This document shows, piece after piece, positions 8,940 through 54,928 of a DNA stretch of 64,000 nt. Under the pieces are notes generated by a model. That model was not told the origin of the DNA. It was given only the letters and a program-made list of their open reading frames with translations, and searched no databases. Positions within the stretch are counted from its first letter, which is position 1; each line of letters starts with the position of its first letter. The stretch covers positions 62,001 to 126,000 of the forward strand of contig JALDZX010000006.1 in the NCBI GenBank assembly GCA_022813865.1. Reading direction: 5' to 3'. The DNA comes from Xylographa opegraphella (Eukaryota). A program made the translations under genes and the position numbers.

Positions 8940-10180
8940 ATGCCCACCGAAACGGAGTCGCTTACTTGACTTCTTCGTGCAACACGAGCAGCACTATCCA
9001 ATCTTCGACCGCATTTGTTCTTATCTAAGCGTTGATGACATTCTCCATGTATCCCAAACGAGTAAAAAGCTCTCCGGACTCTATCAGACCGCTCTGAAAT
9101 GTCAATGGAATGTGGACCGCGCACTTCGCCGCTTCGTCAAGAATCCTCAGGGTTTCAGGACACAACTGGCTCGATGTGACGGGCTGATCTTTGGAAGCTT
9201 TGCGGTTCAGTTTTTTGCTCGCATGGTGTGGCCAGATTTGGGACTTGATGTTTTCTACATGATATCAGATGTATCTCCTGATGGTTTCTCAACCATAGGC
9301 AAGTAACTGGTCGAATTTGAGTGTTATGTGTGGGAGCCACACATAACCTATGTAGGTAATCAAGAAGGGGAGTATCTTTAGCTTACAGTCTAGTTTTAAT
9401 ACCTTTTGCCAGCCCCAAGAAATATACAAACGTCTCGACGACCACGGCCATGTCACTGAAATCCGCATTACCAAATCTGAAAAGCCACCACTCCGAGCAA
9501 TTCTCTGTGATTCTTACTCGACTGCCCAGGTCAATTTCATGACTTCCAGTAATGCATACGCCATATTTCCTCGGCCGACATTTCTCCAGTACAAGACTTA
9601 CACCCTCAATATTTTTGACGAAGCCTGCTGGTCGACTTTGGCCAAATATACTCAACATGGATGGAGAACTCAGGATGTGCTGTGGGAAGAGGAAGAATCA
9701 CCCTATCACCCAATACGGAAGTTAAGACGCATAGGTGATCATTCTACATGGAAGATCTCTTTTGATACTACCAACGTGGAGGAATCCAGCATCCCCGATG
9801 AAGTTTTCGAGACGGCAGAATTTGAAATGTTCCTATCATATGACGACTGTCAATCGACCTACGTGATAGAGACGGACATTTTTTCTGCGTTCACATTACG
9901 TTACCATCACTTTTTTGCAGAGAGTGATGTTGACTTCTGGACTAAATTGGTTGAGGATCGGATGGGGCGGTTGACCTACATTGAACGGATGAAGCTGGAT
10001 AAGGACGGCAGGGCGGCCTTTGATCTCGTCAAGCATCTAACCAGTATACGCTACGAGAGACTCAAGGTCTTTGACGCCCCGGAGACGTGGACGTATTGGG
10101 ATGACGAATTGCCAAATTGGTACAAAGCCTGGAAAGATAACCAACCGAAGGAAGACTTGGCGCATTGGAAGATAGACTGA
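8940..10180 (+). pseudogene. F-box + nucleotidyltransferase-like domain gene, apparently disrupted
   Basis: F-box-like YPIFDRICSYLSVDDILHVSQTSKKL; GLIFGSFAVQFFARMVWPDLGLDVF (GS..DxD-like); downstream YSTAQVNFMT..AYAIFP, KYTQHGW and RRIGD..W motifs. Intron 9352-9412 is in phase. ATG 8940 is out of frame by +1 and there is an in-frame TAA at 9304-9306. Confidence 0.6.
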
Positions 10181-12137: not shown

Positions 12138-12378
12138 GAAGTGACACTCAACCGAGTGAAGTGACACTCAACCGAGTGAAGTGACACTCAACCGAGTGAA
12201 GTGACACTCAACCGAGTGAAGTGACACTCAACCGAGTGAAGTGACACTCAACCGAGTGAAGTGACACTCAACCGAGTGAAGTGACACTCAACCGAGTGAA
12301 GTGACACTCAACCGAGTGAAGTGACACTCAACCGAGTGAAGTGACACTCAACCGAGTGAAGTGACACTCAACCTAGTG
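12138..12378. repeat. Tandem minisatellite, 20-bp unit GAAGTGACACTCAACCGAGT, ~12 copies
   Basis: Eleven identical units plus one terminal unit with a G>T change (ACCTAGTG). No spacers. Stop codons occur on both strands. Confidence 0.98.
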
Positions 12379-17116: not shown

Positions 17117-19087
17117 TCAGACTTCGTTCCCATCATCAACGGTCTCGTCGCCAGAGTCTTGTGCATGATCGACTGCAAAACTCTCATTACCAATACCATT
17201 GTAATGCGAATCAAAGCTATGCAGAGATGAAGTTGCTGCTGGGAATTGGTCATAGAAATGGGCTGCTGAAAGGGGATTTCCAAGGTTGAAGGCCAAGGGA
17301 TTGAAGCCAAACCCATGATTTTGAGGTGGCTGAAGAGGGGTGAAACCCCAGTGTTGTGGCATGCTCGTGTAGTACTGCGGATTGTTATTACCCTGCATCG
17401 CGAAATAACGCTGAGTACTTCTTCCCGCGTTGAATGGAATTGGTGTGCCATCTATCCTTCCTGCTTGATTAACGATCGGCTCGATATTCTCTTTATCATC
17501 CAAACCCCTGGGAGCGAAATGACCATTGCCTGTTAGCCGAGAGCCTGCAATTTTTCTCGTTGGCGCTGGCTTCAACTTTTGTTGTGGTAAAGTCGCAGTT
17601 GCAGGAGGTTTGAGACCATATCGTGAGTCAAATTCTTGTATTTCGTTTGGTAGAGGATAAGCATCCACGCTGCCGTGCTTGTCTTGCAGGAATGGATACA
17701 TCTCTTCAAGATCTCTATCCGCGGATCGCATCCGTTTCGGATCCTGCCTTTTGGCAGGTTCTTCATTGTAGATCTCAAAAGCACGGCGTTTGCCCTGCTG
17801 GAGCTCACCCATCATCAAAGTCCATTCCACCTCGTCGTCCTCCATTACCGGCGACTTGTAGCGTCTCGATACCTGTGGCTTGGCCAGTGACGATGTCTTC
17901 GAATGCGAAGCTTGCATTGCGAGTCTTTGGATCTTCGCCGAGGATCTGCTTGTTTCGGCTGTTGATCTGGTGACATAATTTCTTCTCCCACTCCTGCCAA
18001 TGTTACCACTGATGATACTTAAAGGAGCTCTCTTGCTTTTTGAGCGTTGACGTGTAGGCTTTGGTGTGTCCTCCTTAACTGGACTACTCTCTACCTGTCC
18101 CGTTATGTATCTGCTCTTCTTCAGTTGACCTCCACTGTAGAAGATAAGCTCGGTGGGCTCCACTTCCGCCGAGTTGGCTTTCATTTGCTCTAGGACAGCG
18201 CCGTCCTTCTTCTGATTTCGCCTCCGTCTCGTGTCTGGACTTGCAGAGTCGAAAATATCCATTCCGGGCCAACAAATACCCTTCAGCTTGGTACATTCAC
18301 TCGCTTTGTCTTCCAGTTCTTCAATTCCATCTGCATCAACGCCAGCGCTCTCGATACTTACATTATCGACACTATGTCCTCTGGCAGTCTGTTGAACTTG
18401 CTCTCGTAGGTGAAATGCTGTGGCTAGCAGAAGTCCTGGTGGCTCGGGATACATGTTTCTAATAGGACTCTCTACCAACGACTCCTCATCCGCAAGAGCA
18501 TTATCTGTCTCCTGATATTCAAATTCGGTCAGGGCTGAGTGACGACCTCGTTCTGGAGTCGCGGCTACTGATGACTCTGTGTTCTCCTGATTTGAAGCGG
18601 CCCAGCTCTGCATTCGAGGAACGACATAGGCTCGGTTTTCTACTGCGGAGTTGAGCGATAAAGGTTTTGATTCTTTGGGGCTTCGGACGCCGACATTGGG
18701 GAGGACTTGAGAAAGCTGTGGGTCTAAAACGACATCTCTATGAATATGTTGTGGAATTGCAGACGCTCTTGAGTCACTGACGATACTGTTGGTTGGCTTG
18801 TTTGTGCGAGAGAGTCCGTTATTGGACGTTCTGTTCCTGTTCTGAGCTCCCTTTGATTCCTTCAGAACCATGCGCTGAGACAACAGTTTTTCGATCTGAT
18901 TTCTCTGGTACCATTGATCATACCTGAACAGCTGCTCTCGCACTGCTTGTTCTTGACGACTGCGGACCTGGGCCTTGAAATAGTGGGAGAGATGGCCTTT
19001 CGAGCCAACGTGTGTCAAGAGATGTGATAGATCGCTGAAGTCGGGACGTTTGGGACAAATGGTGCAATGAAGGACAAAAGAAGTCAT
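17117..19087 (-). CDS. Uncharacterised fungal protein with N-terminal C2H2/matrin-like zinc finger
   Basis: Single long ORF with first ATG at 19087. HCTICPKRPDFSDLSHLLTHVGSKGHLSHYF finger and a conserved-looking KLKGICWPGMDIFDSA..RRRRNQKKD block. Confidence 0.8.
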   Translation of the reverse strand: MTSFVLHCTICPKRPDFSDLSHLLTHVGSKGHLSHYFKAQVRSRQEQAVREQLFRYDQWYQRNQIEKLLSQRMVLKESKGAQNRNRTSNNGLSRTNKPTNSIVSDSRASAIPQHIHRDVVLDPQLSQVLPNVGVRSPKESKPLSLNSAVENRAYVVPRMQSWAASNQENTESSVAATPERGRHSALTEFEYQETDNALADEESLVESPIRNMYPEPPGLLLATAFHLREQVQQTARGHSVDNVSIESAGVDADGIEELEDKASECTKLKGICWPGMDIFDSASPDTRRRRNQKKDGAVLEQMKANSAEVEPTELIFYSGGQLKKSRYITGQVESSPVKEDTPKPTRQRSKSKRAPLSIISGNIGRSGRRNYVTRSTAETSRSSAKIQRLAMQASHSKTSSLAKPQVSRRYKSPVMEDDEVEWTLMMGELQQGKRRAFEIYNEEPAKRQDPKRMRSADRDLEEMYPFLQDKHGSVDAYPLPNEIQEFDSRYGLKPPATATLPQQKLKPAPTRKIAGSRLTGNGHFAPRGLDDKENIEPIVNQAGRIDGTPIPFNAGRSTQRYFAMQGNNNPQYYTSMPQHWGFTPLQPPQNHGFGFNPLAFNLGNPLSAAHFYDQFPAATSSLHSFDSHYNGIGNESFAVDHAQDSGDETVDDGNEV

Positions 19088-19709
19088 TGTGGCTGGGAGG
19101 CGGTTCTGATCTAGGAAACGACAGTTTGGGACGTGTATCAATGCTTCTTGCTGAAGCTTGCAAACAGAGCACGCTCTTCCCCAGTGATGAAAACAACCGA
19201 CGATGGAAAGACAGAAGGAGATCATCAAGAAAAGGCTGAGAAAGGACGAGGACGACTTGCAAGCAAAATTAGGTTTGCCAAGACCGTACGTCAACCCTAA
19301 ATCAACATGTCATTCAAGGTAGGAGCAATTGAATCAAGGTGGCACATCGTAGGTGTGCTACAGCTCCCAATGTATTGACTAGGTTGTCACATTACTGAAA
19401 TACTGCAGCCCTTTTGCTCAGATCTGCATGTGTACCTCAGGTATTGAATACTGAGCTTCTAACACCAAGATATACTCGATAGCCAATGGCAAAAAAGCCG
19501 ACTGTGCATATGGTGGACCGCGCTAACAATGCTAACGAGAGCAACGCAGTGATTTTTGGTCCCACCATGCCCGATATTTCCTCTGCTCTAGCCTTGTATC
19601 CCAAATCGATGGTGTGATATTGATTTGGGGTATTAGATGGCAAGAGCTCGCCTTGATCACAAAGGAATCGCCTTTGGTTGAGGAAGTTGCGGCTGAAGCA
19701 TGATATCGT

Positions 19710-20936: not shown

Positions 20937-22681
20937 GACGATCCGTTCTTTGTCTTCACTGGAGACTCATGATGCCTCGAAGCAGCGGTAGACAACTCAC
21001 CTTGCCGACCAGAGTGGGGTGTTGTTCATATTGTTGTTCAGGCATCAGCAGCAGAGCGATTTGGGGGACGTCCCGATTCAAAGCTTGGCAGAGGGGCACG
21101 TGTTCTGTTCGCGGGAGGATGGACGCACGCAGCCTCGCAAAGTCGAACCACCCCACTTTGAGAGCGGCGTTTCACTCCTCGAGTCAGCCGAGGTGGTGAT
21201 CTGGAGCATATGTAAGGGTAGAGACTTGAAGTGGCTTTCTAGATAGATGGATTGCACAATCATCAAATCATGATACCGAGCCCTCGTACTTCCAGTAGTC
21301 TACATCCACCTCGCTTCAAACCGGTGGGCGGCAGGCATTCGGACTGCAACGAGAATCACACCTTAAAGCGTAACCTGGTCCCGTCCCTGTCTCGCCCCCC
21401 GACCGCCCTCCAATTGTGTGCCTGCATAAGCTCCTTTCAGGGGGTCTTAGGGGCCGTTCGCAATTGGATCGTCCGCTGCCCCCGCTAAGTCCCAAACTGG
21501 CTCCAACTGATCCTGAACTGAGCGTACATTCATCACATTGGGAGTATCCACGACCAGACTCTTGGTGCCGCCTTGCTGTCCACTGTAACCGCTTTTTACC
21601 GGGCTTCGGTATTGCTTCACTGCACTTGAATCTCGTTCCTGGCGTGAAGCAAGTCCTGTGGAGACGGAGCACTCAACTGTAGCTTCTATTCACCTGCGCC
21701 ATTGATCAGACCCCTGCGCAGGACCAGAGTCGTATCATGCTGCATTAGGAATGCACCGTTAACTGGACGTCGTCCTCCATTTTTTGCTCACCGCTCGACA
21801 TCTTTTAGGCAGTCGTTTGCAGACTCGCCTGACTTGCACTATCTCCCCAAGGTCTGCCAAAGACTTAATTGTTTCTCCAAATTGTTGCCACTGGGCACCG
21901 ACAGCCTTCCAGCCTGCTCGCTGACGCCGCACACAAATCATCTTCACCAGGCGGTGACTTCGCTCGCAAGACCCAGCTGCAGGATTTCGATCACTCTTGG
22001 ACATACTTTGATGTGCGATCTATGCCAGTAGGTTAGTTGAAACTTACTCCGACGTTAATCATGAGAGGGCGCCACAGCCGTAGTCCATGTTGCCCTTTGC
22101 ACAAACCTTCGTATCAAAATACGTATATCACAGCTGCCGTGGAACAAGCTCACGACGTTGCTAATGCCTGTTGATTCAGCAGATAAGTTAGTACAACCGT
22201 CGGCTCAGAAACCAACGAACATCTTACGAAATACAACTTCGACATCGCAGTCACCAATTTGTTTCCGAAATCAATTCTCGACGGCTTTGGGAAGAGCTCG
22301 AATGGTGGATGTATAGCATATATTTGAATGAAAGTAAACAATCAACAGGCTCCTAAAGCCCCGTGGAAACACGACCCACAGGGATACCACTGCCACACAG
22401 GAACTTGGACGAATATTGCTGTGCTATCATTTGCACGTTCGCCTCTTCGACGGGCGATCACATTGTCCCAAGGCTTCTGATTTGGTTTGGTTCTATTTCC
22501 TAAATTAGTTTGGGATTGAAGAAAAGGAAAGGTGCATAATTCTCAAGGTCAATCGCCTTCAGTGGAATAACGGGACCTTATTACTTTCCAGTGCTGCCTA
22601 GTCCTGTGAGCAGACACTTTTGCACGACAGAAGCTCTGACGGCGTATTTTCTTGGGACCTACGCGGTCAAAGTAGCTAACC

Positions 22682-24807
22682 ATGGCCAAAACAAAAACTG
22701 CAAGGCTGTCGTTGACCTTGCCAAATTCTATACAATTGCCAGGAGATGCTGCTCTCTCGCCGACAAATAGTGGTCTTGGTAGCCCAAGAGCGCCCGACAC
22801 GCCTAGAAGAACGCAGTATGCGATAGCTTCCCGGAGCGAACATCACGGTGACTCAGCGCCTTCGAATCCATCACTCAAAAGCCCGTTTTCCGCTCTTCAA
22901 ACTTCCACAAGCTATCCCGCGTCAAGCAACTCTTCGGCCACTCCAATCTCGCCAACATTGCCAGCCTCACCGACCTCTCCTGCTTTCACATCACTGCCAC
23001 CCTACCCGACGTCTCCACAACACACTCCAAAGCATGCTCGTGACCCGTCGAGGTCTTTCTTTGCGAACTTGAAAGCATCAAAATCATCTACCAGGATACA
23101 GTCACCTGAAAGTACGATTCGGAAAGTCCCTCAAGAACCCAACGACGATATATTGCCATTCAGGAGGAAGAAGTCTTCGCCTAATCTAGGCTCTACACCT
23201 TCAGGCTCGGCTCCGGACGTGCCACTCCTTGGTGCAAACACACAGACGAGCTACTCCATTGCTTCGAACTCGCAGAGTTCACGTTCCCTGACCACTGAGC
23301 ATGGTTCTACGACCGACTCTGAACTTTCAAGCACCCGGCGCCCTGTCGCGGGATCTACATCATCGGGAAAGTCTTCTCCTTCTATAACATCGGATGCACC
23401 AGAGTTGAAGAAGAAGGACAGCTCCATGCTTTCTAATTTGATGAAGAGGAATCATTCGGGTCGTCCAGAAGATAGTACCAATATCTCGAAGCCGTCTACG
23501 CCCACGCAAACACAACCTCCGGATCTGGGTGAACGGGCTCTGGCACCACGAACCCGCTCTGCCACACGAAATCCCTCACCGCATTCCGAATCTGGTGCTT
23601 CTGATGCTTATGGAAGCAGCAACTCCAGAACCACAGGACCTCAACTCATGAATCAGAGATCACAAGTATTCCGTGAAGGTGGCACACATTTGTTCAATGA
23701 CTTCAAAAAGCGAACCGCTAAAGCTGCCGGGGGCATCGGCAAGGCAGGTAACCGTTTGTTTCGTAACAAAGTACCCGATAAGCCAATTGAACCTCCGCCC
23801 AATTATCATTGTACGGTCCTCAACCAGTCCCTGGTCAATCAGACACGGATTACGCGTATTGCTAGGAGGTTAGAGGATTCCAAGGATAAGACGGAGTTTT
23901 GGATGCCAGCACTACCGTGGAGATGTATCGAGTAAGCAGGCTCTTCAGCTAGTAATTCTGTGTGGTACTAATCCGTCTTTAGCTATCTGAACTTTAAAGG
24001 CTGCGAGATTGAGGGCCTCTATCGAATCCCGGGCAGTGAGGTGCAAATCAGGACTTGGAAATGGAGGTTCGATACTGGTGAGCGCTACGCATGTGTGAAT
24101 TTATTCGACCGTGTACTAATCGAGTTCTAGAGCACGATATTGATTTGTTTGAGGTGGATGACCTTTACGACGTCAATATAATTGGATCGCTGTTCAAATC
24201 ATGGCTTCGAGGACTTCCAGATGAGATTCTGCCCAAATCGACACAAGAAAGACTCTCCGCTGAAGTTGGACCAAGCGATCATGCGCCGCAAATGTTGAAG
24301 GACGAACTTTCTCTGTTACCGCCCTGGAACTATTACCTCTTGTTTGCAATCACTTGCCACTTGAGTCTGCTTCACGCATATGTGGATAAAAACAAAATGA
24401 CCTATCCGAACCTTGTCATATGTTTTGCACCAGCGCTACAAATGAATTCGGATTGCTTCCGCTGGCTTGTTACGGACTGGCGCAACTGCTGGCAAGGTTG
24501 TTGGACAGAAAAAGAATACCTTGAGGAAGAGTATAGAGTCCTCGATCATATGGAACCCGTCGGGGACAGGGGCTTCGTCGACTCGCAGCCTCAAACTGCG
24601 GAGGATCGTTCTCTTTCTTCCTCCGGGAGTGGCACAACTAACACTGCCTCCCACAAACCGCCAGCTATCGATTTGTCACAGAGTATAGATGACGCCCCTC
24701 TTGACACGAACACTGGTTCCCATCATAGCAGAAACCCTTCACAGCTTCCGGAGCTTACCCTCCCGCAGCCAATCTCACCTTTCTTTAGCTCCGAGCACAC
24801 TCAATAG
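22682..24807 (+). CDS. RhoGAP domain protein with Ser/Pro-rich N-terminus
   Basis: DKTEFWMPALPWRCI|DYLNFKGCEIEGLYRIPG (arginine finger), GSLFKSWLRGLP and NKMTYPNLVICF. Confidence 0.92.
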
Positions 24808-40987: not shown

Positions 40988-42111
40988 TTACAGGTCGGCC
41001 CTTGCTTCCTCCCCTGCCCAGCACCGCCGGATGAGCTCTCGGATCGGGCCTCTCTCGATTTCTCGAGGATTCCAATATGGATTACCGACGGCGATATCCG
41101 CAGCTCTATCAATGTCCGCCTCTTTCATGCCAAAATCCTTGAGGCCCCTTTTCACTTTCAGTTTGGTCAACAGCACATTAAGCCCCTTGATCGCATCTCC
41201 GTCGCTCTCTGGCAGTGCCCGTGCAAGCTGTCTCATGGCCTCTGGTATTGCCGGGGCGTTGTATGAGAGTGCATGTGGGAGCACAATGGTATGTGTCTCT
41301 GCATGAGGCAGGTTGAAGCTGCCTCCCAAGGTGTGGCATAGCTTGTGATGCAAGGCCATGCCAACGCTCCCCAGGCAGGTTGCACACAGCCATGCGCCAT
41401 AAAGTGCGTTGGAGCGGGCGGCTTGTCCTGAAGGGTCTTGTACGATCTCCGGGAGCGCTTCCGCAAGAGCTTTGATGCCTTTCCGGGCGAGCAGGCACAT
41501 GATGGGATTGGTGTTGCGGGCGTATAACGCCTCGACTGTGATGCATTACTCTTGCTTCCTTCTTTCCGTGAGAAAACAATCATACCTGCATGTGCGATTG
41601 CATTGACACCACTGGTTGCACTGAGTGCCGGCGGCAGCGTCATCACCAGATCTACATCATATATGACGGTCCCAGGCAGAATCTTTGGGTCACTCCTGGT
41701 CTTCTTCTGTCCGTCGGCGGTCTCGCCCAAGATGGGCGTCATCTCACTGCCTGCATACGTGGTCGGGATGCAGATATGCGGAAGCCCGGTCCGTATGCTG
41801 ATCGCCTTCCCCAGCCCGATGGTGCTTCCTCCTCCGATCGATATTACCGAGTCCGCCTTCTGCTCCTTCGCATACTCCAATGCTTTGTCCGTGATGTGTG
41901 TGGGGGTGTGCATCGTGGCCTCGCTGAAGAGGCCGGCCACCTTGCCATTGAGAATGGCTTTCAGGCCTTCCGCCTGCTCAATCTGCTGAGGTGTGGAGAG
42001 GAGCAAAGGCGCTTTCAGGTTCAGTCGGGCTACTTCGTCGGGGAGTTTTTGGAGACTGCCGCTGCCGAAGATGACTCGGCCAGGGTTCGCATTGTATTCG
42101 AATGACTGCAT
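40988..42111 (-). CDS. Maleylacetate reductase (iron-containing ADH family), 2 exons
   Basis: RVIFGSG, SIGGGSTIGLGKA, IPTTYAGSEMT, SGVNAIAHA|VEALY and MALHHKLCHTLGGSFNLPHAETH. Confidence 0.92.
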
Positions 42112-42461
42112 TGTTAGTGAGATGTTATTGATATGGTACGAGAACGTACACGGTAGGCCCATTTACGGTTGTATCCTTCTTAAATGTGTAGAAATCTGCC
42201 ACGATTCCCCGCGTGGACCCAATGTTCGGCAGAGGGGAGCATTGCGGGGCAGGCGGCGGATTCCTGCGGCAAAAGTCCCTACATGCTATTCTAGATTGGC
42301 TTGAGAAAAAAACCAACTTCAACGGTGATAGGTGTGGTCAAGTCCTGTCTTCGAAGATGATATTAAATTTACGTCTAGATCCTCGCTCTCTGGGTATCTG
42401 TAAGCTTTCCAAGCATATTTCCCAACCACGAAATAGAAGAGCAATATTGTGTGACCGGAGC

Positions 42462-43779
42462 TCAGTCGATGCCTGTGAACTGCATCAAGTCCTTCCCTCC
42501 ACCCCGATCTTTCCCATTCGCCCTCTTCCTCTTCTTTCTCCTCTTCCTCTCTTGCTCCTCCTCCTCCTCACTACTCTCCTCGTCGTCTTCACTATCCTCG
42601 TCACTATCACTTCCCGTACCCCTTTTCGTTCCCACCCTATCCACTCCTTCGTCCTCCTCCTCCTCATCTCCCACCACATCCGCACTCTCTTGCCAGACCT
42701 TCACCAGCGGCCCCCCACCACTCACCATCCTTCCGCCCACCTCGAAGCCCAGACCCACCACACCTTCCACCTCATCGTGCCTTAACTCCCCGACGACCTT
42801 GTTGGCACCCACCCTCACGATCTTCACCCTCCCGTCTCCCATCCCCACCGCCACGCAGCTTCCCTCCCCTACCCCCTCCGGTACCCGTGCCAACACATCC
42901 AAACTTTCCTTCCCACCATCCACTATGATCCTCCCCCCTTGATCATCCCACGCCCCCTTGTCCCACAGCGTGAGCACCCCACTCCCGCCACCCACAAGCA
43001 CTTTATCGCCTCCATTCCGCCCCCTCTTCGATACCAACCCAGTGACATACACACCGCTGAGGAGCTCTTCCTCCTGATCTTCACTCTTGGCCAGCACTCC
43101 CCGGCGCAAATCCGTCACCGCGAGCGTAGTGCCCCCTGTAGTAACCCACTGCTTCGGAAATCCGCTCGTCGAAGCCACCGTCGGCGGCAGCGGCGTCAGC
43201 GACGAAACATAATCGTCATGCGGGCGAAACGTAGCCTGCGGTCTCGACCCGACCGCCACGCCGCTCGACTTCGGGTCCGCGCGCAAATCGTACAGGTACA
43301 GCGCGCCCGAATCCGTCGCCAGCACCAACGTCTGCGGCGAAAGCGCGTGCAGCAAACAGGGCGCGTCAATTTCCGAGCTGCTGCGCCATCAGTCGCCCAT
43401 CCCACTCAAACGGGTCAGCCGCGGAGGAAACCACCCACCGCACCAGCGGGACGCCGATCTTCACCTCCACGCGCCCCGTCTCCGCGCGCGCCGCTTTGAC
43501 TATCCCATCCGTGCCGGCGGAGAAGAGCGCCTCGCCGTCGGAGCTGAAGGCCAGGCTGCGGCAGCTGCCCTTGTGGCGCTTCGTGCGCCAGGAGGTCTCG
43601 ATGGTCCCGCGGCCATGCTTCGGGGACGAGCGCGTGGGGGGCCCGGTGGGGATTGGGGGGAGGCGGTACGTCTGTACGTGCCCGGAAGCGAGGCCGACGG
43701 CGAGGAGGGGGGAGGTGGGGTGGATGGCTTGCGCGAACAGGTCGGAGGGGAGGGGGAGCGTGCAGATCGTGTCGAACAT
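42462..43779 (-). CDS. JIP5: WD40 ribosome biogenesis protein Jip5/WDR55, 2 exons
   Basis: [51 protein letters not shown], and acidic/basic tail ending FTGID. Confidence 0.9.
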
Positions 43780-44571
43780 TTTGGTCCTTTTTCACGCTGT
43801 GGAGGACTTTTTGGATGGGGGAAGGGGGAGCAGGGGCGGGCGCTAGTTCGTTGTGGGATTACGGCGTGTTCGGCGCGTTTGATTGGTGGGGAGTGGACAC
43901 CTACCCAGGCGCTCTGGACTGCTCCTCATGTGTGCCGCGCAGAGGCATATCCGGACATAGAGTCCTTTTCCGAACTCGACAACACTTGCTTTCGAAGCTT
44001 TGCCTCATCGCTCATACCTAGTCGAGTCGGTCTGGCATTGGCACTTTGTGGAAGAACCTCAGCACCGGTCGACCGTCCATCGTGACTGCGACATATGTGT
44101 GGCAAACTTGGGCTTGTGCAGCATGTATAGAGATAAAACCGGCTGCTACGTACTGTAGTAAAATCAGGTGCTGAGAGGGTCTTTGCAGGGAACGTGTATC
44201 CAATTGAGGCCAATCATACCTACACACGACGGAGGCAGAAGTGTTCCACTTCACGAGACATAGCGATATCTTTAGTACTACAGAAGGAGAATTACGGATT
44301 GCTCAGATGCAGCAAACCAGTGCAATGAAAAGGGCTTGATATATTTCTGAAAACCAGACTTCTAGCACTACACCCCCGTACAGAGACAAGATGTCTCCAC
44401 AGCTTCCCAGAAGTTTCCAACGCCCAGCAAGATCAAAACAGCCATGTATGATTCCTCAATACTTCTTCGGAAGTCTGTTGGCAGTAGCACTCCTCCGGAC
44501 ATGCGGATCTCTGGAAGTGGTCGCCAACAGTTGGCAAGAATCTATTATCGCCCGGCCAAATTTACGGTGTA

Positions 44572-47500
44572 CTACTTCCGTCTCGCCTTCTTAGTCGATG
44601 GACCAACTCCTAAGCTTGAGCTATCAGAACTGGAACTGGAACTGGAAGTATAATAAGTGGGTATGTTAGGATGAGCAGTACTTGTACCAGTACTTATACC
44701 AGTACTGGTTTGATGATCTCGTTTTGTGCCCGTCCTCGGGCTGCCAGCTGCCTTCGCAAACTCCTCTGGCAATTTATCTTTGGCTCCCCTGAACTTAAGG
44801 TGTGCATCGTTGTAACCGCATTTCACGTAATGACGAGCTCTGCTCTATATATATATTAGCTTTCATGATGCGGCACGACATCGGCCTTTTGGTGATGGTT
44901 ACCTGATCATTATTCTTAACTGCATTTAGATTCGTACCGCAACGACAGATCCAAACCGTGCCCTTGGCTCTGGGCATTAGGTCACTTTGAGGATCCCTGC
45001 CCTGGGCATCAAGGCCAACTAGACCTCCAACAGGGTTTCCTGAAGGATGTGGTGTAATTCCTATCCCCTGATTCGCCACAACTGGAACAATTGCAGCTGG
45101 AATAGTTGCAGCTGGATTGGCTGCAGTTGGAATAATTGCAGCTGGTACGGCCGCAGCCGGAATGACTGTAGCTGGAATAGTTGTAGCCGCAGTTGGAATG
45201 ATGGTAGCTGGTATGGTCGCAGCTGTATTGGTTGCAGTTGGAACAATTGGAGTTGGAACGAGTGCAGCTGGCTGGGTCGCAGCTGGTTTGGTCGCAGCTG
45301 ATTTAGTTGCAGCTGGTTTTGTGGCAGTTGGTGTGGTGGCATTCGGTTTGGTCGCAGCTGGTTTGGTCGCAGCTGGCTTGGTCGCAGCTGGTCTAGTCGC
45401 ACGTGGTTTGGTGGCAGCTGGCTTAGTCGCACGTGGTTTGGTGGCAGCTGGTTTGGTGGCAGCTGGTTTGGTGGCAGCTGGTTTGGTGGCAGCCGGTTGG
45501 GCAGCAGCAGGATTGCTTCCACTTGGAACGACTGCAGTTGGAGTGCTTGCACTTGATGCTGTTGGAGTAACGGTCGGCAGCCTTGTGTTTTGCCGGCCTA
45601 AATCTTGGGGACCTGTGTTTTGTGGCCCTATGTATTTTATAAGCTTGTGACACTCAATCCATGTTGGGCTTCTAAGGGAGACGTCATACCACTGTTGGCA
45701 TCACCAAGACCAGTAGGGGGTGTCTTGGCCCGTCCTCCTAGTGTGTGCATTAATATGTGATCCATTTGATCCTGATCTTGGTGTTAGCGAATTACCACGA
45801 GATATTCTGCAATTCAACTTACGCTACCGCTCATAAGATCCATATCGGCATGGCAGATGGCGTCGAGCCTGCATTGTGAAGGTTCTGGAGCTTCGGGAGC
45901 TCGTGGCATATGATACTCTCGCACATGTCGTAGTATTGACTATTTATGTTAGCCAGAACAAGGCTTGAGGGACTACCTTTTGCAACATACGCCATATAGG
46001 TCACCTGTGTTTTCTCCAATAACGAGTCTACCACACCGCCCTGTACCATCATTTAAGGTACAGGTACCAACATTCTGAAGAGCTTCATGCTGTATGTTTA
46101 ATGACAAGGTACGTTCCGCCGCCTGATTATTCGCTCTCTCAAAAGTCTGCTGCGCTACATTCAATGTCTGCCGTTGTTGCTCCAGCGCTGCGATCGTTCG
46201 TTCAAGTGTTGCTGTTCTTTCTTCAAGTTGCGTATCTCGTGTTTGAAGCTGTGCTGCCCATTGTGCTAGCAGTTGTTCCCGTCTGTTAAGATCCTGGGCT
46301 CTTTCTGCCAAACCTAGACTTTCGGGTCCACTTAACCGCTGCGTAACCTGAGAACTAATTAAAGGATCTTGCCTATTTTGTATAGGAATTCTTAACCCTA
46401 ACGGACTATTCATCAGTCTTGCTGCATTAAGTGCATCTTCGGCTGCCTGCGCTCTTCGCTTTCGCCGTGTCTCGCGCTCTTCTTCGGATTCCTCGAAACT
46501 CTGCAAAGGATTCTAACCCAGTCAGCTCTCGTTCCACTTGTTTGTCTTACATGACAACTCACCCAGTCTGTGGGATAAACATTAATGGTTGGGTCGTCTA
46601 TCCTCCAAAGGAGATCTATCAGGAAAGCGTGATTGTCCATATTCGAATCCCACATTAGCCATTCCTTTTTATGTCTATCTACCTGCACGCGGGCAGTGTC
46701 AGAGGCGTCCCTACCCATCAGTGCAGTAATTCCTGTACCGAATTGCGCTTTGATACAGCCTGGAGGATCGGGTGTCATGTCATATTGAGCAAAGAAGTAG
46801 TCGGGATCGGGTCTTAGAGTAACTTGCGGCAATGGGAATACCAAGTCGAGTTTGAAGAAATTGGAAGTGTCTCTCCCATCTTGTACCCAAAGTCGGGTCT
46901 AAACAGGAAAAATCAGCATCTCGTTATCAATTGTCATGGCAGAATCCTCACAAATGTCCTTACTACCCAGACCTCCTCTTTGTCGGTTATCGCCATTAAT
47001 CTTGGAAGAATCTCATTTTGGTAGTGGTCCTGTAACGCTCCACCATTTAGGAAAGCGTCTGATAATGATGCAATATCGTTAAAGCCAGTCAGCCTACCCC
47101 CATCACCAGAACTGACTCTGATAAGTCGAAAGCTAAGGTGGTCGTAGCGGCCCTCGGGTGTCATAGGTTGGACTGGATATAGCTTTCTCACATGCTCCAA
47201 TAGTCTCGCTAACTCGAATGGTTGCTCGAACTGCAGCCTTTTAAGTCTGGCGGGACGCACCAGTGTAATGGCACGCGTGGTTTGAAGGGTCGGTTGTGGT
47301 GCGATTGTTGAATTGACTCTATGCGCCAGAAACTGTAAAATTGTTAATAATTGCATGAGGCACGACAAGGTCATCTCTGAAACATTACCTGATGTGTGGT
47401 TACATATTCACGAATACTCTTATCTTTTTCAGTGTTCCGCTGTTTTGGAGGATCATTGGAAGTCTCGTAGCCAAATTGACTGGACCCAGTATTTGGAGCC

Positions 47501-48912
47501 TGGGACATACCCAGGCTTGGCACATAATACGCAGCCCCAGACAACCCGCCTTGTGGTAAAGAGAACATGTAAACTTCTATAGAAGCATTTGACTCCCACA
47601 TTTTCTGTAGAGAGGCAATGCTTAGTGCGTCGACACCCTTCTTCTCTAAGCTGTAGATTTCTTCCGCTGTCATCCATGGGGGCCAAGAGCTGGTGGCATT
47701 GATCTTCTTCGGCAGGAGGTCCAACTCATGAGATCCTGTAGCTCCTTGCTTGAAAAGCAACGCTTTCTTAACCTGATCCAATAGGGGGGTGGCTTTGATA
47801 TCCTGAATTTCTTCAGGTAGAAGATCCAGTTCACTCTCTTTGGACCAGGGTCGCTTTTCACCAATCAAGTATCCTTTCGTATCCTTTGCATCCTTTGTCT
47901 CTTCGAATATTTCTGTCTTAACGATTGGGTTTGGACTCAAAGGAGGTGACGCGTACGAATCAACCCCAATGGCATTTCTCCTGGCGTCGATATCGACGTC
48001 GGTACGGGGAGGCGACGCTAGATTTCCAGGAAACTGCAATGGCATAACGCTCGGCATTTCGTGTGATTTGGACGGTGGTGTCATCTCCTCCAACGCTGTC
48101 TCAAAGCGCTTCACTTCGAACTTCGAACTACTTCTCGGAGAGATTGCTTCATCGGCCATAGAGACTTTCTTGGATCGATGGTCGGCGTCAGCATGGTCCG
48201 AGAATCCGGCCCGGAGTTTATGATCATTTGGATAGAAGTTCACGTGGCCAAATGGACTGATTTTTCTGTCGATTTCCATTTCGCAAGAAACAGCTGGCCC
48301 GTCTTTAGGGTCGGACTTTGCGCCTTGGTGCTTGGATAGTCCGGTAAGTTCCACTTCCAGGGTTGCCAAAGCCTTTTCCGCACTCTCGGAGTATGCCTCG
48401 TGCTGAGCTTCGATGTCTTGCAAGTCTTTCTCGATACCAAGGATTTCAGATCCGTTTTCATCGAGCTCCTCGAAGTGGCCGGAGTCGTTGGAGATATCCA
48501 TTTCTTCGCCACCACCTTCTCCGTCATTTGGCATGGGCTCCATACGTATCGCGACCTTTGTCTTTGTGATTTTGGCGTCGATCACATTGTGCTCGTCGAA
48601 GTATTTTGATCCTTTTTCCAGGATTTCCTTGAGTAGCTCCTCCTCGTCCTCGGAATCAACTCCTCCAGTCTTATTGTCCCGCTTCTTAAAAACGACCGTT
48701 TGTTTCGTTGGAGAGAGCTGTATCTCTGCGACGTCATTATCTTCCATCAGAATGTCGTTGTCATTTTTTTCTGATGCTGTGTCAAGGTCCAGTACGTGCA
48801 TTGGGCTTTCATCAGAATAAAAGAGGCCATCGTCTTCGGCTATATCTAGGTCTTCCTCTCCGCCATAGTCGACCTCCTCCTCGGAGGCATTGGATCCAAT
48901 TGGGTAAGGCAT
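44572..48912 (-). CDS. Orphan ~1315-aa multidomain protein, 8 exons (48912-47389, 47332-46964, 46898-46563, 46512-45991, 45939-45823, 45771-45690, 45627-44903, 44844-44572)
   Basis: Seven GT-AG introns of 50-65 nt, most with a CTRAY-like branch site, join the separate ORF-track fragments into one open frame. Acidic N-terminus, coiled coil, zinc-finger-like motifs, PAATK repeats and KKARRK tail. Confidence 0.75.
45085..45496 (-). repeat. Coding 15-bp tandem repeat, (PAATK)n grading into (PAA/TI)n pentapeptides
   Basis: Unit CCAGCTGCSACCAAA on the minus strand. About 15 near-perfect and about 12 degenerate units, stop-free in the exon-7 frame. Confidence 0.92.
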
Positions 48913-49731
48913 GATGTGCTATATTCAATAGGCCGCAGCCTTGCAGCATCAATATATTCACTGGGCTTTCATATATCTTGGTCTTGGGGAGTGCGAATCA
49001 AAAGCAGAATACTACTAGAGAAAACGAAGCAAATAAAGAGCACGAAGTTCACTGCTTCGCGGCAACTTCGGCCGTTGATAAAGGAGCATGAGAAGGCCAT
49101 GTCGCAGGATAATGGAGACCAACGCGCCGAACATACCAACGGCCGCTTTCGGTTCCTCCTTCATGGTAACAAAGAAAACTTCCAGCTTGCGATACTGCCG
49201 ACTAGAACGATATGTACTGGCTGTTGGCAGTGGAGAACTAATTGGGCAAGTGGAAAATGCCGTTTGCAGGAAAACACACGCAAGACTCGATTGCAACGAA
49301 CAATGCGACGAAAACAGCCTGCGGTAGCCGCCGGTTCGGAGAGACAAAGAAATTCATCATCATACCCACCAGATTGCTCTCTAATCAATCGACCTTGACA
49401 GCTGCGGAGCAGGTAGATGAGTCCATTGCATTCAACGCGTGACAATAGTGTGCGCTTCGCAATAATAGAACATGAAGTTTCGTGGCCGTAAAAACGAGCC
49501 TCGCTTGACTAACTATTGACCCTACCCCTAATCGTGGCTTAGTTCTGCCGCAAGTGGCAGTTAAGGTAAAATTACAGTGGTACTTAACGCCTAATAATCC
49601 AGTACACAGTACAGACTTACGCAGTGGTCTAAGAGTACACCCATAGCGTCAACGCCATACCCTTGCAGAGCTTTTATCCACGCATCCCACCCCTCTGCTC
49701 GTCCATTGATAAAACGACAATCACCGTCAAC

Positions 49732-51298
49732 ATGTCTCTCCGCCTCCCCTCCGCTCTTCCCGCCTCTCTTGCTCTTGGCGCCCTAGGCACACTCTCCCTT
49801 CTCTACATCTACACCCGCCCCTCCGCTCCCTCCACCACATCTCCTCCGTCACCACCCCCGGGCCAGGGTCCACCCAACTCCATTCCGTCCCCCGTCCATA
49901 CTCTATTCCCGCACCTCACGCCCGCTGAGCAATCTGCGCTGCCCTACCCTCCAGACCTTTTCCCCGGCGCACGAGATGTGGAGTCGCCGTATGGATCGCT
50001 GCGGGTGTATGAATGGGGTCCGGAGGAGGGCCGGAAGGTTCTACTCGTGCACGGCATCAGTACTCCTTGCTTGAGCTTAGGGGCAATTGCTGAAGGGCTT
50101 GTCGAGGGAGGGGCCAGAGTGATGCTTCTCGGTGAGTAAGGTGGTGGTTTCTGCTTGTACGTTGTATCGCCTTCGAGGCTTTTACCAACGCAATGATAAA
50201 TCATGTATCGAGGACCCAATCAGACCCTCGGATACCGTAGCAGCTGTCATTTTTCTTATCAATCCCTTACATCGCCCAAGAAACTCTCATTCTTCGATCG
50301 TCCTTCACCGCCCCCAGTACTCCAGCTTTCTCAATTCCACCCTACCTCCGTCAAAACCCCATCCTCTATCTCCCCTTCCACCCCCTCACCTCCCCGCTCA
50401 CACCACCACCCCCACAGACCTCTGGGGCCGCGGCTACAGCGCCACGCCCCTCCTGCCGCACGACCCCCGCCTCTACACCACCGCCCTCCTCATCGCGCTC
50501 GCCTCCTCCCCCCTCTCCTGGACGGGCGCCTCCGCCACCTTCTCGCTAGTCGGCTACTCCCTCGGTGGCGGCATCTGCGCCACCTTCACCGCCTACTTCC
50601 CCACCCTGGTCTCATCCCTCATCCTGATCGCGCCCGCGGGGCTCATCCGGCCGCACCGCTTCAGCGCCCTCAACCGCCTCACGTACACGCTGCCGGACTG
50701 GGTGCTCGAGCCGATGATCAAGCGGCGCCTGAAGCGCGGCCCCGCCGCTGCCACGGCTGTGAATCCAAAGGGCACGAATGCCGGCTCGGACGCCGACGCT
50801 GTGGAGGAGGGAGGATCCTTCGACGCAGCGGTGCTGTCGACGCGTCGGCCGGGCGTCACGGTCAAAGACGCAGTGGTACGCCTCTCCCGCCCTACCCATC
50901 CAACCCCGAAAACCCACTAACCCTTCCCCCCCCCCCAGACATGGCAAGTAACCAGCCACCACGGCTTCGTCCAGTCCTTCATCTCCAGCGTGCGGCACGG
51001 GCCCATCTCCGGGCAGCACGCCGACTGGCGGCGCATTGGCGCGCGGCTGCAGGCCCAGCACGCGGCGGCGGCGGGAGATGCGGAGCGGGCGGCGCGGATG
51101 GGCCTGCGGGAAGGCAAGGTGCTGGTGGTGTGCGGGCAGAGCGACCCCGTGATCGATCGGGTGGAGCTGGTGGCGGATGCGTCGGAGGTGCTGCAGGGGC
51201 ATGTGAGGGTCGAGACGTGCGAGGCGGGGCACGAGGTGCCGATCACGAGGAGCGAGGAGGTGGTGGGGTATATTTGGGATTTTTGGGGCGGGAGGTAA
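49732..51298 (+). CDS. Alpha/beta-fold serine hydrolase with N-terminal membrane anchor, 3 exons
   Basis: Hydrophobic N-terminus, VLLVHGISTP, DLWGRGYS, nucleophile elbow GYSLGG, CGQSDPVI and AGHEVP. Confidence 0.9.
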
Positions 51299-51650: not shown

Positions 51651-52468
51651 CTAGACGTAATATTGACCTCTACTGTCCCTCGAGCTCCGGCGTTGCGATC
51701 CGCTTCTCGAGTGCCCACGCCTATTTCTCTCGGTCAGTAAACGCATCGCGGCACAAAAAAAACATCATCTCTGTCTAGAGCTTACCTCGATCCATGGCTT
51801 CTTCGCCTGTACACCTCCTTTTCAACCACCACATTTTTCTCATGCCTATGCATCAACACCGCCAGAATGGCCGTGATGAAGAAGAATATACAGTTCATGA
51901 TGCCGAACGCCCACGAGGCTTTCAGCATCGTGCACGTCTTGTTCGCGTTCACCGAAAATGGGGTGTAGTTGATGTCCAACGGGGAGATCGTGACCGTGCC
52001 ACCAGACGAGGAGACTCCCCCCGTGGATGAGACGCCCCCGGAGGTATCCACACAATTGGCATTAGCGATGCCGCGTAGAGTGTAGACGGCCCCGATGAAG
52101 GCCCCGACGAAACAGAGGTCGACAAAGGCAACGAAGCCAGCGGAATCGCGGGTCGAGTGTCGCCGGAAGAGGGTCACGAGCGCCCAGACGGCGGCGAGGA
52201 CGGAGACGATGAAGAGGACGCTGATGGTGACGTGTTAGGAGTTGAGCTCGTCCAAGGGCCGCAGTTGCGCGCGGGGACGACTTACAGGATGTAATTTGGA
52301 GTGAGTTGGTTCTGATTAACATAGCCATTGACGAAGTAGGCCTGCGATCGGTCAGTGTTTGATTCGTACCTAGAAAGAGACCAGGAGGCGTACCAGCATG
52401 CCCAGCGTCGGGATCAAGGTGACGACTTCGAGCATCCTGAAAATGCTGAAGATCCATCCGGAAATCAT
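51651..52468 (-). CDS. MARVEL-like 4-TM membrane protein, 4 exons
   Basis: Spliced MISGWIFSIFRMLEVVTLIPTLGML|AYFVNGY..|VLFIVSVLAAVW..FVDLCFVGAFI..CTMLKASWAFGIMNCIFF, then an Arg/Ser-rich tail ending YYV*. Confidence 0.82.
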
Positions 52469-53501: not shown

Positions 53502-54928
53502 CTAAAGGCGGTTGAACCGACAGTTTGCGCAAGCATACATGCTACAAACCCGGCACCGGAAGAGAAAATGTGGAAAAAGTCCCTCGCAATTCTCGCACCG
53601 TCCGCCAACTCGGCTTCGTACCCAGTTTTCGTGGCCGCAGTCTGCGTGCTCCAGCAGATCGTGTATCCTACGCATCATGAGTTCCCAAGCTTGCGCCACA
53701 TCAGGCGCTAGGTGTCGACCGGCCACCAGGTTTGCTCGTTCCAACAACCGCTCCTCATCCCAAAGCCGACAGTGACAGTTGTCGGACTTCCAAGGGCGAG
53801 CGCAAAGGTAACAAAATTCTGCACTGCAATGGCATCTATAGCATATTCAGAACGCAGTGATTGGTGAAGGGGTAAGAGTAGTTGGAACATACGTTATGTG
53901 ATTGCAGCCTTGCACAAGCTCCACGAAGCGTTTGCAGCGATAGCATCGTTGCCAGCCCGCTTCCTGGGCAACAACGACCAATTGTTGCGAAGCTACATCC
54001 TCTGGGCAGTCCTGCGATCCGTGTGAGCAGTTCTTGCAAAACGTGCAGGTCGAAAGGCCACAATCAAGACACAGACCGATCTCGTTGTTGATGTTTCCTG
54101 GCGGTATGAAAGCAGCACAGGGGATCCAAGCGCAGTATGTTCGGTTTGGTGTTGTGTATTCCAAAGCTTTGGCCTCAAATTGTCTCACGAATTCTTCGGT
54201 GAAGAACACCGAGGCTGCCGCCAAGGGGATAGTCTTGCGACAGCAGCGAGGAGGAAATAGTGATTCATCGCGAGTGGCCATGAGAAATAGTTGCTTGACG
54301 CAGGCCTTGCAGTAGTCGTGGCCGCATGGCCCGTATACTGCATCGAAGTATGCGACACTCTCTTGACAAGAAGCACATGTCTTCATTACCCCGATGACAT
54401 CTTCATTCTTGACACTGAGTTTCACTTGCGGTTGGTTATGTACTGATAGCTGCGATGTCGGAGCCAAGTCGACAATGTTGGAAGATATGGTGTTGAGGGA
54501 TTCCAGTCGGCCGATGACTACATCTTCTGTCTCTTCCGTAAGACCGACGATCGAAGCTGGAAGGTTTGGATCACGCTCGCCTTCCATACGAAAAGTGTTC
54601 TCTCTATCTGGAATCTCAAGTTGTTCCTGCAGTCCGGCAGTTCGCAGAACGCTGCCATCCTGCTGCACAGCCCTTGCGATACTGCGGGCCATGCGCCCAT
54701 CTCGAAGCATGTCCAGCTTGGCTGCAACTTGGTCGCGATACGCGATTAAAGCTGTGTCCCCATCAGACCTCATTGATGTAGCGTCGGAGTTATCGGTAGT
54801 GGCGATTAGTGCTTCGAGATCCTTCCAGATGTGTGAGTCTGTTTCAGTGATACCGCTGTTGCTCATACAACAGCACTTACCTGCAGCTGCAACGACAGAG
54901 ACAGTTCTTCGGTATCTTCATCCATCAT
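53502..54928 (-). CDS. RBR (RING-IBR-RING) E3 ubiquitin ligase, 3 exons
   Basis: MMDEDTEELSLSLQLQ|DLEAL start, RING1 CASC..PCGHDYC..DESLFPPRCC, IBR RTYCAWIPC, RING2 WQRCYRC..GCNHIT|CHCSAEFCYLC, and an extra C-terminal Cys cluster. Confidence 0.92.

What the first reader, a model, noticed from the sequence alone, without database searches (positions are those of the whole stretch)
44572..48912. Large orphan nuclear-type protein revealed only by splicing, with three zinc-finger-like motifs each split by an intron
Seen: eight exons join in frame to about 1315 aa. The order is an acidic disordered N-terminus (~500 aa), an unrecognised aromatic-rich globular region (exons 2-3), a Q/E/R coiled coil, CTLNDGTGRC..|SILRHVREYH, CRLDAIC..|DQMDHILMH, the PAATK repeats, WICRCG..|SRARHYVKC, and terminal PSTKKARRK. 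In each finger the Cys pair and the His part lie on different exons with a phase-0 intron shortly before the first His, suggesting duplication of an intron-bearing module. Inference: a lineage-specific chromatin or nucleic-acid-binding scaffold that I cannot assign to any family. This is the best candidate for undescribed biology in the window.
Basis: partly seen in the sequence, partly recalled or inferred. Interest (0 to 1): 0.7.

Follow-up and report, generated by a model that had tools for sequence, protein, structure and literature searches.

The report
Fungal ubiquitin-fold zinc-finger scaffold gene
This is a real eight-exon gene of a lichen fungus whose unnamed protein carries two ubiquitin-shaped domains, a coiled coil and three zinc-finger motifs that arose by copying one intron-bearing module, so it is probably a non-enzymatic docking scaffold from an unstudied fungal family.

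Summary
The gene is real: minus strand 48912-44572, eight exons, seven short GT-AG introns. One donor needs moving (46951, not 46963). That gives 1,319 aa, identical to a public hypothetical protein of Xylographa opegraphella.

It is not an orphan. Five full-length Xylographaceae orthologues, two Candelariales proteins and about 30 unnamed exon fragments share its core.

The unrecognised region is two tandem beta-grasp (ubiquitin/PB1-like) domains, one per exon. Exon 3 models at pLDDT 86, and the hit lists are almost all beta-grasp, at modest Z 5-7.

The Cys/His ligands are conserved. All three fingers have a phase-0 intron exactly four codons before the first His (chance about 1e-7), which supports duplication of one module. 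The PAATK repeat is private to this species.

Best reading: a probably nuclear, non-enzymatic adaptor whose fingers bind proteins, possibly ubiquitin (0.4). Nucleic-acid binding is the main rival (0.3). It fails the PB1 motif test and the two defined UBZ residue tests, so it is filed in neither family. No function is shown.

The parts
44572..48912 (-). Whole gene, 8 exons, 1,319 aa, ATG at 48912, TAG at 44574-44572
   Evidence: identical to P0001. Orthologues start at the same Met. Three queries (exon 3, exon 2, a distant relative) each found only this locus in the own genome.
47389..48912 (-). Exon 1 (aa 1-508): acidic, low-complexity, probably disordered region, ending in a conserved FGY-containing linker (aa 479-525 runs on into exon 2)
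   Evidence: Composition; 85/478 identical to Lambiella against 63/112 for domain 2. Disorder is inferred; this region was not folded.
46952..47332 (-). Exon 2 (aa 509-635): beta-grasp domain 1 (about aa 529-635) with conserved basic residues R534, R537, R557, R633
   Evidence: Model b-b-a-b-b-a-b, most 10-residue blocks pLDDT 58-86. VIA best Z 7.2 SAP18 (rmsd 4.7, 111 aligned), 6.7 PKD ULD, 6.5 PB1. Conservation in 13 rows.
46563..46898 (-). Exon 3 (aa 636-747): beta-grasp domain 2, aromatic-rich, E714 and D736 invariant
   Evidence: pLDDT 86, pTM 0.78 on 37 rows. VIA best Z 5.0-5.3, about 72-76 aligned, rmsd about 3, against PKD ULD, PB1, SIN1 RBD and UFM1. Invariant residues 37/37.
46069..46353 (-). 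Coiled coil (about aa 801-895) in exon 4
   Evidence: Heptad with Leu at one position in 10 of 14 turns; weak coiled-coil-type Pfam hits below cut-off.
45910..46062 (-). Finger 1, C-x8-C-x18-H-x4-H (aa 898-931), split by intron 4 (45990-45940, phase 0) four residues before the first His
   Evidence: Same spacing in 3 Xylographa orthologues; C-x2-C-x18-H-x4-H in Lambiella.
45745..45873 (-). Finger 2, C-x5-C-x14-H-x3-H (aa 944-969), acidic, split by intron 5 (45822-45772, phase 0) four residues before the first His
   Evidence: Same spacing in 4 Xylographaceae orthologues and one Pycnora finger. Net charge -4 to -6 in 4 Xylographa proteins, +1 in Lambiella.
45264..45498 (-). PAATK-type tandem repeat in the linker between fingers 2 and 3; species-specific expansion
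   Evidence: TRF period 15, 15.7 copies, 81%. 12 units here, 0 in 6 relatives; linker 245 aa here against 39-158 aa.
44818..44947 (-). Finger 3, C-x1-C-x16-H-x3-C (aa 1215-1238), basic, split by intron 7 (44902-44845, phase 0) four residues before the His
   Evidence: The last finger is CCHC in 7 of 7 proteins that reach it; C-x2-C-x14-H-x3-C in Lambiella, Pycnora and Candelina.
44575..44592 (-). Terminal basic cluster, candidate nuclear localisation signal
   Evidence: Basic clusters in the last 120 aa of 7 of 7 proteins. The NLS role is inferred.

Best explanation
A single-copy fungal gene for a non-enzymatic, probably nuclear adaptor protein.

Shown by sequence and models: a long acidic region, two tandem beta-grasp (ubiquitin/PB1-like) domains each on its own phase-0 exon, a coiled coil, three zinc-finger motifs built by duplicating one intron-bearing module, and a basic tail.

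Inferred mechanism: the coiled coil dimerises the protein. The beta-grasp pair, the most conserved part, docks a fixed partner; domain 1 keeps a basic surface and domain 2 invariant acidic and aromatic residues. The fingers recognise a protein ligand, most likely ubiquitin or ubiquitylated proteins in the manner of UBZ fingers, and so bring the partner to marked substrates. The architecture I put at about 0.85; the protein/ubiquitin-reading mechanism at about 0.4.
For: Folds; nearly all listed hits are beta-grasp. No enzyme or other family reaches its Pfam cut-off.

Conservation peaks in domain 2 (63/112 identical to Lambiella).

Fingers have 14-18-residue spacers and variable number (2 to 6). 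The last finger is CCHC. In Lambiella, Pycnora and Candelina its spacing, C-x2-C-x14-H-x3-C, equals that of the SNM1A UBZ4 peptide printed in PMC11199599 (passage). Finger 2 is acidic, and 11 of 23 fingers have Asp/Glu just before the first His. NDP52 needs Asp439 for ubiquitin binding (PMC8017197, passages); that this Asp sits just before the His is recalled. A coiled coil followed by terminal fingers is the NDP52 layout (same paper).
Against: The window protein's fingers meet neither UBZ residue set defined in PMC4370504 (passages): no Asp at His-2 with Ala at His+2, and no Pro-Val loop. No UBZ family or UBZ structure was hit by sequence. The best sequence matches of the Pycnora fingers are DNA-binding Zif268-type fingers (E 0.004-0.05). 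Atlas feature hits are generic C2H2 clusters at 0.87-0.90. Finger 3 is basic (+1 to +6). 12 of 23 fingers lack the acidic residue. Fold Z-scores are under 8, the range that may mean only a common arrangement, and a shared fold shows no function.
Confidence: 0.4

Rival explanations
1. A nucleic-acid- or chromatin-binding regulator. The fingers are divergent C2H2/C2HC DNA- or RNA-binding fingers, the acidic N-terminus is an activation-like region, and the beta-grasp pair and coiled coil serve oligomerisation or co-factor binding. This is.
For: Basic C-terminal clusters in 7 of 7 proteins. Pycnora fingers 1-2 match Zif268/EGR1-type chains at E 0.004-0.05. Atlas hits are C2H2 clusters. Finger 3 is basic. 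The best structural match of domain 1 is SAP18, a nuclear protein (Z 7.2, 111 aligned). PB1 folds occur together with DNA-binding domains (PMC7051960, passage).
Against: No zf-C2H2 Pfam hit for any full-length member. Spacers are 14-18 residues rather than the classical 12 (recalled). Finger 2 is net acidic in 4 of 5. Finger 3 lies 39-245 aa from its neighbour, and helix residues vary between relatives.
Confidence: 0.3
2. A self-assembling PB1-like scaffold. Basic domain 1 and acidic domain 2 pair head-to-tail, within or between molecules, to build polymers or condensates, as p62/NBR1-type receptors do. The fingers capture cargo.
For: PB1 domains are prominent among the structural hits of both domains. 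Domain 1 conserves Arg at 534 (basic in 13/13) and 537; domain 2 has invariant E714 and D736.
Against: The OPCA core is found in 0 of 13 domain-1 rows and 2 of 37 domain-2 rows, neither at the conserved site. There is no Pfam PB1 hit. PB1 hits are tied with RBD, CIDE, DCX, UFM1 and kinase ULD hits. The basic tail suggests a nuclear location.
Confidence: 0.15
3. A ubiquitin-like-domain co-factor of the conjugation machinery, working like Esc2/Rad60 (tandem SUMO-like domains; recalled): the beta-grasp pair mimics a modifier and binds an E2, E3 or protease.
For: Tandem beta-grasp domains, an acidic low-complexity N-terminus and a coiled coil. SUMO, UFM1, NFATC2IP and USP7/USP11 Ubl domains are in the hit lists.
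Against: No profile similarity to ubiquitin (hhalign probability under 1%) and no SUMO-like Pfam hit. The domains are internal and carry long insertions. The ubiquitin-tail-like string after finger 3 ends in Gly-Gly in only 1 of 5 Xylographaceae proteins.
Confidence: 0.1
4. The long protein is an artefact of joining separate or decayed ORFs.
For: Two public orthologue models (P0002, P0005) lack some fingers. Intron 6 has no canonical branch-like motif. Public models are themselves predictions.
Against: One uninterrupted frame with canonical introns. The domain order is the same in Xylographaceae and Candelariales. Intron positions 2 and 3 are conserved in distant fragments. The three finger introns sit at the same offset.
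Confidence: 0.04

Closest known systems
NDP52/CALCOCO2 and TAX1BP1 ubiquitin-binding adaptors
   Same: N-terminal docking domain, then a coiled coil, then C-terminal zinc finger(s); no enzyme domain (NDP52 layout from PMC8017197 passages; TAX1BP1 recalled).
   Different: No SKICH hit; the docking module is a tandem beta-grasp; there is a long acidic N-terminus and a basic tail; no sequence similarity was detected.
UBZ4 fingers (SNM1A, RAD18, WRNIP1, FAAP20)
   Same: The terminal finger is CCHC; in three relatives its spacing equals the printed SNM1A peptide.
   Different: The window's own finger 3 is C-x1-C-x16-H-x3-C. Group 1 and group 2 ubiquitin-contact residues are absent. No HMM or PDB sequence hit.
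PB1-domain scaffolds (p62, NBR1, Bem1, Cdc24, Par6)
   Same: Beta-grasp fold with the PB1-like order of elements, Z 4.2-6.5; one basic and one acidic domain.
   Different: No OPCA core at the conserved site and no Pfam PB1 hit; two such domains in tandem. PMC7051960 reports four fungal PB1 families (passages seen name Bem1 and Cdc24), and nothing seen there describes this layout.
SAP18
   Same: Best single structural match of domain 1 (Foldseek E 0.011; VIA Z 7.2, rmsd 4.7, 111 aligned): an enlarged beta-grasp.
   Different: 12-13% identity, tied within 1 Z unit with PKD ULD and PB1. SAP18 is a small stand-alone protein (143 residues in the entry).
Classical C2H2 transcription factors (Zif268/EGR1)
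   Same: CCHH ligands; weak sequence match of the Pycnora fingers.
   Different: Longer spacers, no Pfam zf-C2H2 hit, an acidic finger 2 and a dispersed array.

Membership tests
PB1 domain | Ubiquitin-like beta-grasp fold | tested here: met
   Models and fold searches for both domains; Z 5-7, not specific to PB1.
PB1 domain | OPCA core D-x-D/E-x-D/E (PMC7051960) | tested here: not met
   0 of 13 domain-1 rows; 2 of 37 domain-2 rows, neither at the conserved site.
PB1 domain | Conserved Lys in strand 1 | tested here: inconclusive
   Domain 1 has a basic residue at 534 in 13 of 13 rows (12 Arg) at the end of strand 1. Equivalence to the PB1 Lys was not mapped structurally.
PB1 domain | Pfam PB1 match | tested here: not met
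   No hit for exons or full proteins.
UBZ finger, FAAP20/Pol eta group | Asp two before the first His and Ala two after it (PMC4370504) | tested here: not met
   0 of 23 fingers listed have both.
UBZ finger, RAD18/WRNIP1 group | Pro-Val loop after the first Cys plus a helix Asp (PMC4370504) | tested here: not met
   No Pro loop in any Xylographaceae finger. Pro-hydrophobic loops in 5 of 8 Candelariales fingers, without Asp at His+2 in the terminal ones (the His+2 position is recalled).
UBZ finger (type 4 spacing) | C-x2-C-x14-H-x3-C as in the SNM1A peptide | tested here: inconclusive
   Met by Lambiella, Pycnora and Candelina; the window protein has C-x1-C-x16-H-x3-C.
UBZ finger | Binds ubiquitin | not testable with these tools
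   Needs a pull-down or NMR titration.
Classical C2H2 DNA-binding array | Pfam zf-C2H2 match and 12-residue spacer with short linkers (recalled) | tested here: not met
   No zf-C2H2 hit in 8 full-length members; spacers 14, 16 and 18 in the window protein.
NDP52/TAX1BP1 receptors | SKICH domain | tested here: not met
   No Pfam hit; the folded core is beta-grasp.
NDP52/TAX1BP1 receptors | LC3/Atg8-interacting motif | not tested
   Not examined.
Esc2/Rad60/NIP45 (recalled) | Two C-terminal SUMO-like domains | tested here: not met
   The beta-grasp pair is internal, with no SUMO-like Pfam hit and no profile match to ubiquitin.

The most novel reading that the evidence does not exclude
An undescribed fungal family of ubiquitin-reading nuclear scaffolds, with its own class of beta-grasp domain and its own class of ubiquitin-binding finger. 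It is assembled from exon-sized modules: finger number (2-6) and probably beta-grasp number vary between lineages. It would be a fungal counterpart of NDP52/TAX1BP1-type adaptors that arose independently.
Probability: 0.25. Interest if true: 0.7.

Novelty: new variant of a known kind. Interest (0 to 1): 0.48.

Why it matters
It turns an unannotated 1,319-aa hypothetical protein into a testable architecture and defines a fungal domain family that Pfam does not hold. If the fingers read ubiquitin, fungi have an adaptor class that current UBZ and PB1 profiles miss. The gene structure is also a clean case of module duplication that kept its intron at one codon in three fingers whose sequences have otherwise diverged. 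Without a shown ligand, partner or phenotype, it remains an unstudied multidomain protein made of known folds.

Tried and rejected
Expression: no RNA holder was listed for the region, so no reads were laid; this is no evidence either way.

Complex prediction: fingers 1-2 with two zinc ions and the genome's own ubiquitin gave 'no answer' (score 0.00, mark 0.34, alignment not used, controls not folded). This is no evidence for or against binding.

Sequence libraries: no Pfam family reached its cut-off; the Extensin_1 and HC2 hits come from the repeat. PDB sequence searches gave nothing convincing: none for the core, chance hits, and a Rad50 hit at E 0.03 explained by coiled coil plus CxxC. ESM Atlas gave no usable hit for exon 3.

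Wider relatives: two metagenome scans found no confirmed locus (68 and 94 pattern matches, none confirmed), so no relative's DNA was available to check finger introns directly. Word-index searches added no new full-length member. One of the 38 profile hits (P0037, a plant protein) was dropped as a false positive.

Profile comparisons: domain 1, domain 2, ubiquitin and two candidate extra modules of the Candelariales proteins showed no similarity to one another (all probabilities about 1% or less). A recent duplication of domain 1 into domain 2 is therefore not supported, and the extra modules remain unproven. The three finger introns share no sequence similarity. A search of the own genome with the Candelina terminal finger found nothing.

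Fold searches single out no one beta-grasp family.

Literature: searches listed no paper on this gene or layout. The library lacks most subscription papers, and figures and supplements with UBZ alignments (PMC4370504, PMC11199599) were not seen.

Rejected: a conserved ubiquitin-tail mimic (Gly-Gly in 1 of 5), the PAATK repeat as a family feature (0 of 6 relatives), and a functional link to neighbouring genes (housekeeping genes of mixed function).
Full report
Observation. The region holds one minus-strand gene from 48912 to 44572. A search with exon 3 returned a public hypothetical protein of the lichen fungus Xylographa opegraphella (P0001, 1,319 aa) and five orthologues, four from Xylographa and one from Lambiella insularis. 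The window model becomes identical to P0001 when the intron-2 donor is moved to 46951, and the four added residues are matched in 4 of 5 orthologue models. With that donor, 6 of 7 introns have a branch-like motif; intron 6 has none. Retaining any intron truncates the protein. Three queries found only this locus in the own genome. The neighbours are housekeeping genes of mixed function.

Not an orphan. A profile of the conserved core (six sequences, 286 positions) found 38 representatives at E up to 0.001. Three are Xylographaceae proteins already in the profile. Two are full-length proteins of Pycnora praestabilis and Candelina mexicana, which belong to another class, Candelariomycetes. One is a plant protein that I dropped as a false positive. 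The other 32 are exon-sized gene calls; 17 of them were looked up and none names an organism. The 37 rows of domain 2 fall into 29 groups below 60% identity, and the tree is poorly resolved, with 5 of 34 branches well supported. The profile was narrow and was not iterated, so the family may reach further. The Candelariales proteins keep the order core, helical region, fingers, basic tail.

The fragments support two junctions independently. Unspliced gene calls read into a GT donor as Val. After the domain-2 end motif this is seen in 26 of 29 fragments that carry the motif, and in none of the 8 spliced proteins. After the domain-1 end it is seen in 7 of 7 fragments. Introns 2 and 3 are therefore old, and they bracket domain 2 exactly.

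The unrecognised region. No Pfam family or solved sequence matches it. Folding the core gave a confident first half with the order strand-strand-helix-strand-strand-helix-strand; the second half was poor with six sequences (mean pLDDT 51.8). The wide structural search gave SAP18 (Z 7.2, rmsd 4.7, 111 aligned), the PKD ubiquitin-like domain (6.7) and PB1 domains (6.5), and nearly all 50 rows are beta-grasp folds. Exon 3 folded alone on 37 rows reached pLDDT 86 and pTM 0.78 with the same order of elements. Its best matches are again beta-grasp, at Z 5.0-5.3 with about 72-76 residues aligned. Foldseek gave no match at E up to 0.001 for either model. These Z values lie in the range that can mean only a common arrangement; the call rests on the uniform hit lists and the matching topology, and no single family is singled out. 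The two domains show no profile similarity to each other or to ubiquitin. Domain 1 conserves basic residues (position 534 basic in 13 of 13 rows). Domain 2 has E714 and D736 in 37 of 37 rows plus several aromatic positions. The PB1 OPCA core defined in PMC7051960 (passages read) is absent from the conserved site, so these are PB1-like folds and not PB1 members.

The fingers. Three Cys/His motifs are present, against at most one in 1,000 shuffles. Each is interrupted by a phase-0 intron exactly four residues before its first His. Under a uniform model the chance is about 1.4e-7; the model is crude and was applied after the pattern was seen, but the margin is large. The three introns no longer resemble each other, so the duplication is old. 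Three distant unspliced fragments have Val 11 or 15 residues after a Cys pair, where the same intron would begin; two of the three have Val at two nearby positions, so this is only suggestive. Ligands are conserved in the orthologues whose models include them; P0002 and P0005 lack some fingers, probably through model errors (inference). Pycnora has six motifs and Candelina two. The PAATK array occurs in 0 of 6 relatives and only lengthens a variable linker.

What the fingers bind is open. For protein or ubiquitin: the terminal finger is CCHC, and in Lambiella, Pycnora and Candelina it has the spacing of the SNM1A UBZ4 peptide printed in PMC11199599 (passage read). Finger 2 is net acidic in 4 of 5 Xylographaceae proteins. 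11 of 23 fingers carry Asp/Glu just before the His. A coiled coil followed by a terminal finger is the NDP52 layout, where Asp439 is needed for ubiquitin binding (PMC8017197, passages read; its position next to the His is recalled). Against: the window's finger 3 has different spacing. Neither ubiquitin-contact residue set of PMC4370504 (passages read) is met, although that paper notes a third UBZ group with neither set. No UBZ profile or structure is hit. The Pycnora fingers match Zif268-type chains best (E 0.004-0.05), Atlas hits are generic C2H2 clusters, and finger 3 is basic.

Mechanism. Shown: gene structure, conservation, predicted folds and module duplication. Inferred: nuclear location from the basic tail (7 of 7 proteins), dimerisation by the coiled coil (heptad), partner docking by the beta-grasp pair, and ligand reading by the fingers. 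I put a protein/ubiquitin-reading adaptor at 0.40, a nucleic-acid-binding regulator at 0.30, a PB1-like polymer at 0.15, a ubiquitin-like co-factor of conjugation enzymes at 0.10, and artefact at 0.04.

Earlier notes. An unchecked report on another fungal genome (e1-3036548) describes a 2,052-aa protein with seven predicted ubiquitin-like modules, a finger array and a ubiquitin-tail motif. It may be the same family, but sequence look-ups did not link the two, and it is not independent support. The tail-like string here ends in Gly-Gly in only 1 of 5 Xylographaceae proteins.

Novelty. Seven paper searches (listings only, apart from the four papers named) showed no description of this gene or layout; the library is incomplete, and figures and supplements with UBZ alignments were not seen. 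The parts are known folds, while the sequence families and their combination are in no library searched. Verdict: real, a new variant of a known kind of multidomain adaptor, function not shown; interest 0.48.

Noticed in passing
window 12138-12378: Near-perfect tandem array of a 20-bp unit, 12.1 copies, 99% matches, about 0.8 kb from the end of a MutS-family gene.
   Followed up: no
P0024 aa about 420-630; P0039 aa about 500-705: The two Candelariales proteins share two further modules ahead of the core whose sequence pattern suggests more beta-grasp domains. Profile comparison was not significant and they were not folded.
   Followed up: partly
window 44780-44805 (aa 1244-1250) and orthologues: A string resembling the ubiquitin C-terminal tail follows finger 3. 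It ends in Gly-Gly only in P0002 and is internal.
   Followed up: partly
P0002 and P0005: The public models of two Xylographa orthologues lose finger segments or end early, probably through mis-splicing.
   Followed up: no
window 9356-10180 (+), 17117-19309 (-), 22676-23935 (+), 51782-52234 (-): Open frames of 150-730 aa with no Pfam hit at E 1e-4. 22676-23935 lies just before a RhoGAP exon.
   Followed up: no
window 41233-43791 (-) and 49633-50920 (+): Immediate neighbours: a WDR55-like WD40 gene and an iron-containing alcohol dehydrogenase downstream, and a divergent alpha/beta hydrolase upstream. Synteny was not checked.
   Followed up: no
window 45009-45650: Several overlapping low-complexity open frames on both strands (Cys/Ser-, Gln/Leu- and Ala/Val-rich) are by-products of the 15-bp repeat.
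   Followed up: yes
window 53847-54917 (-): 356-aa open frame with a weak IBR (half-RING) hit just under the cut-off; possibly an RBR ubiquitin ligase exon about 5 kb from the gene.
   Followed up: no
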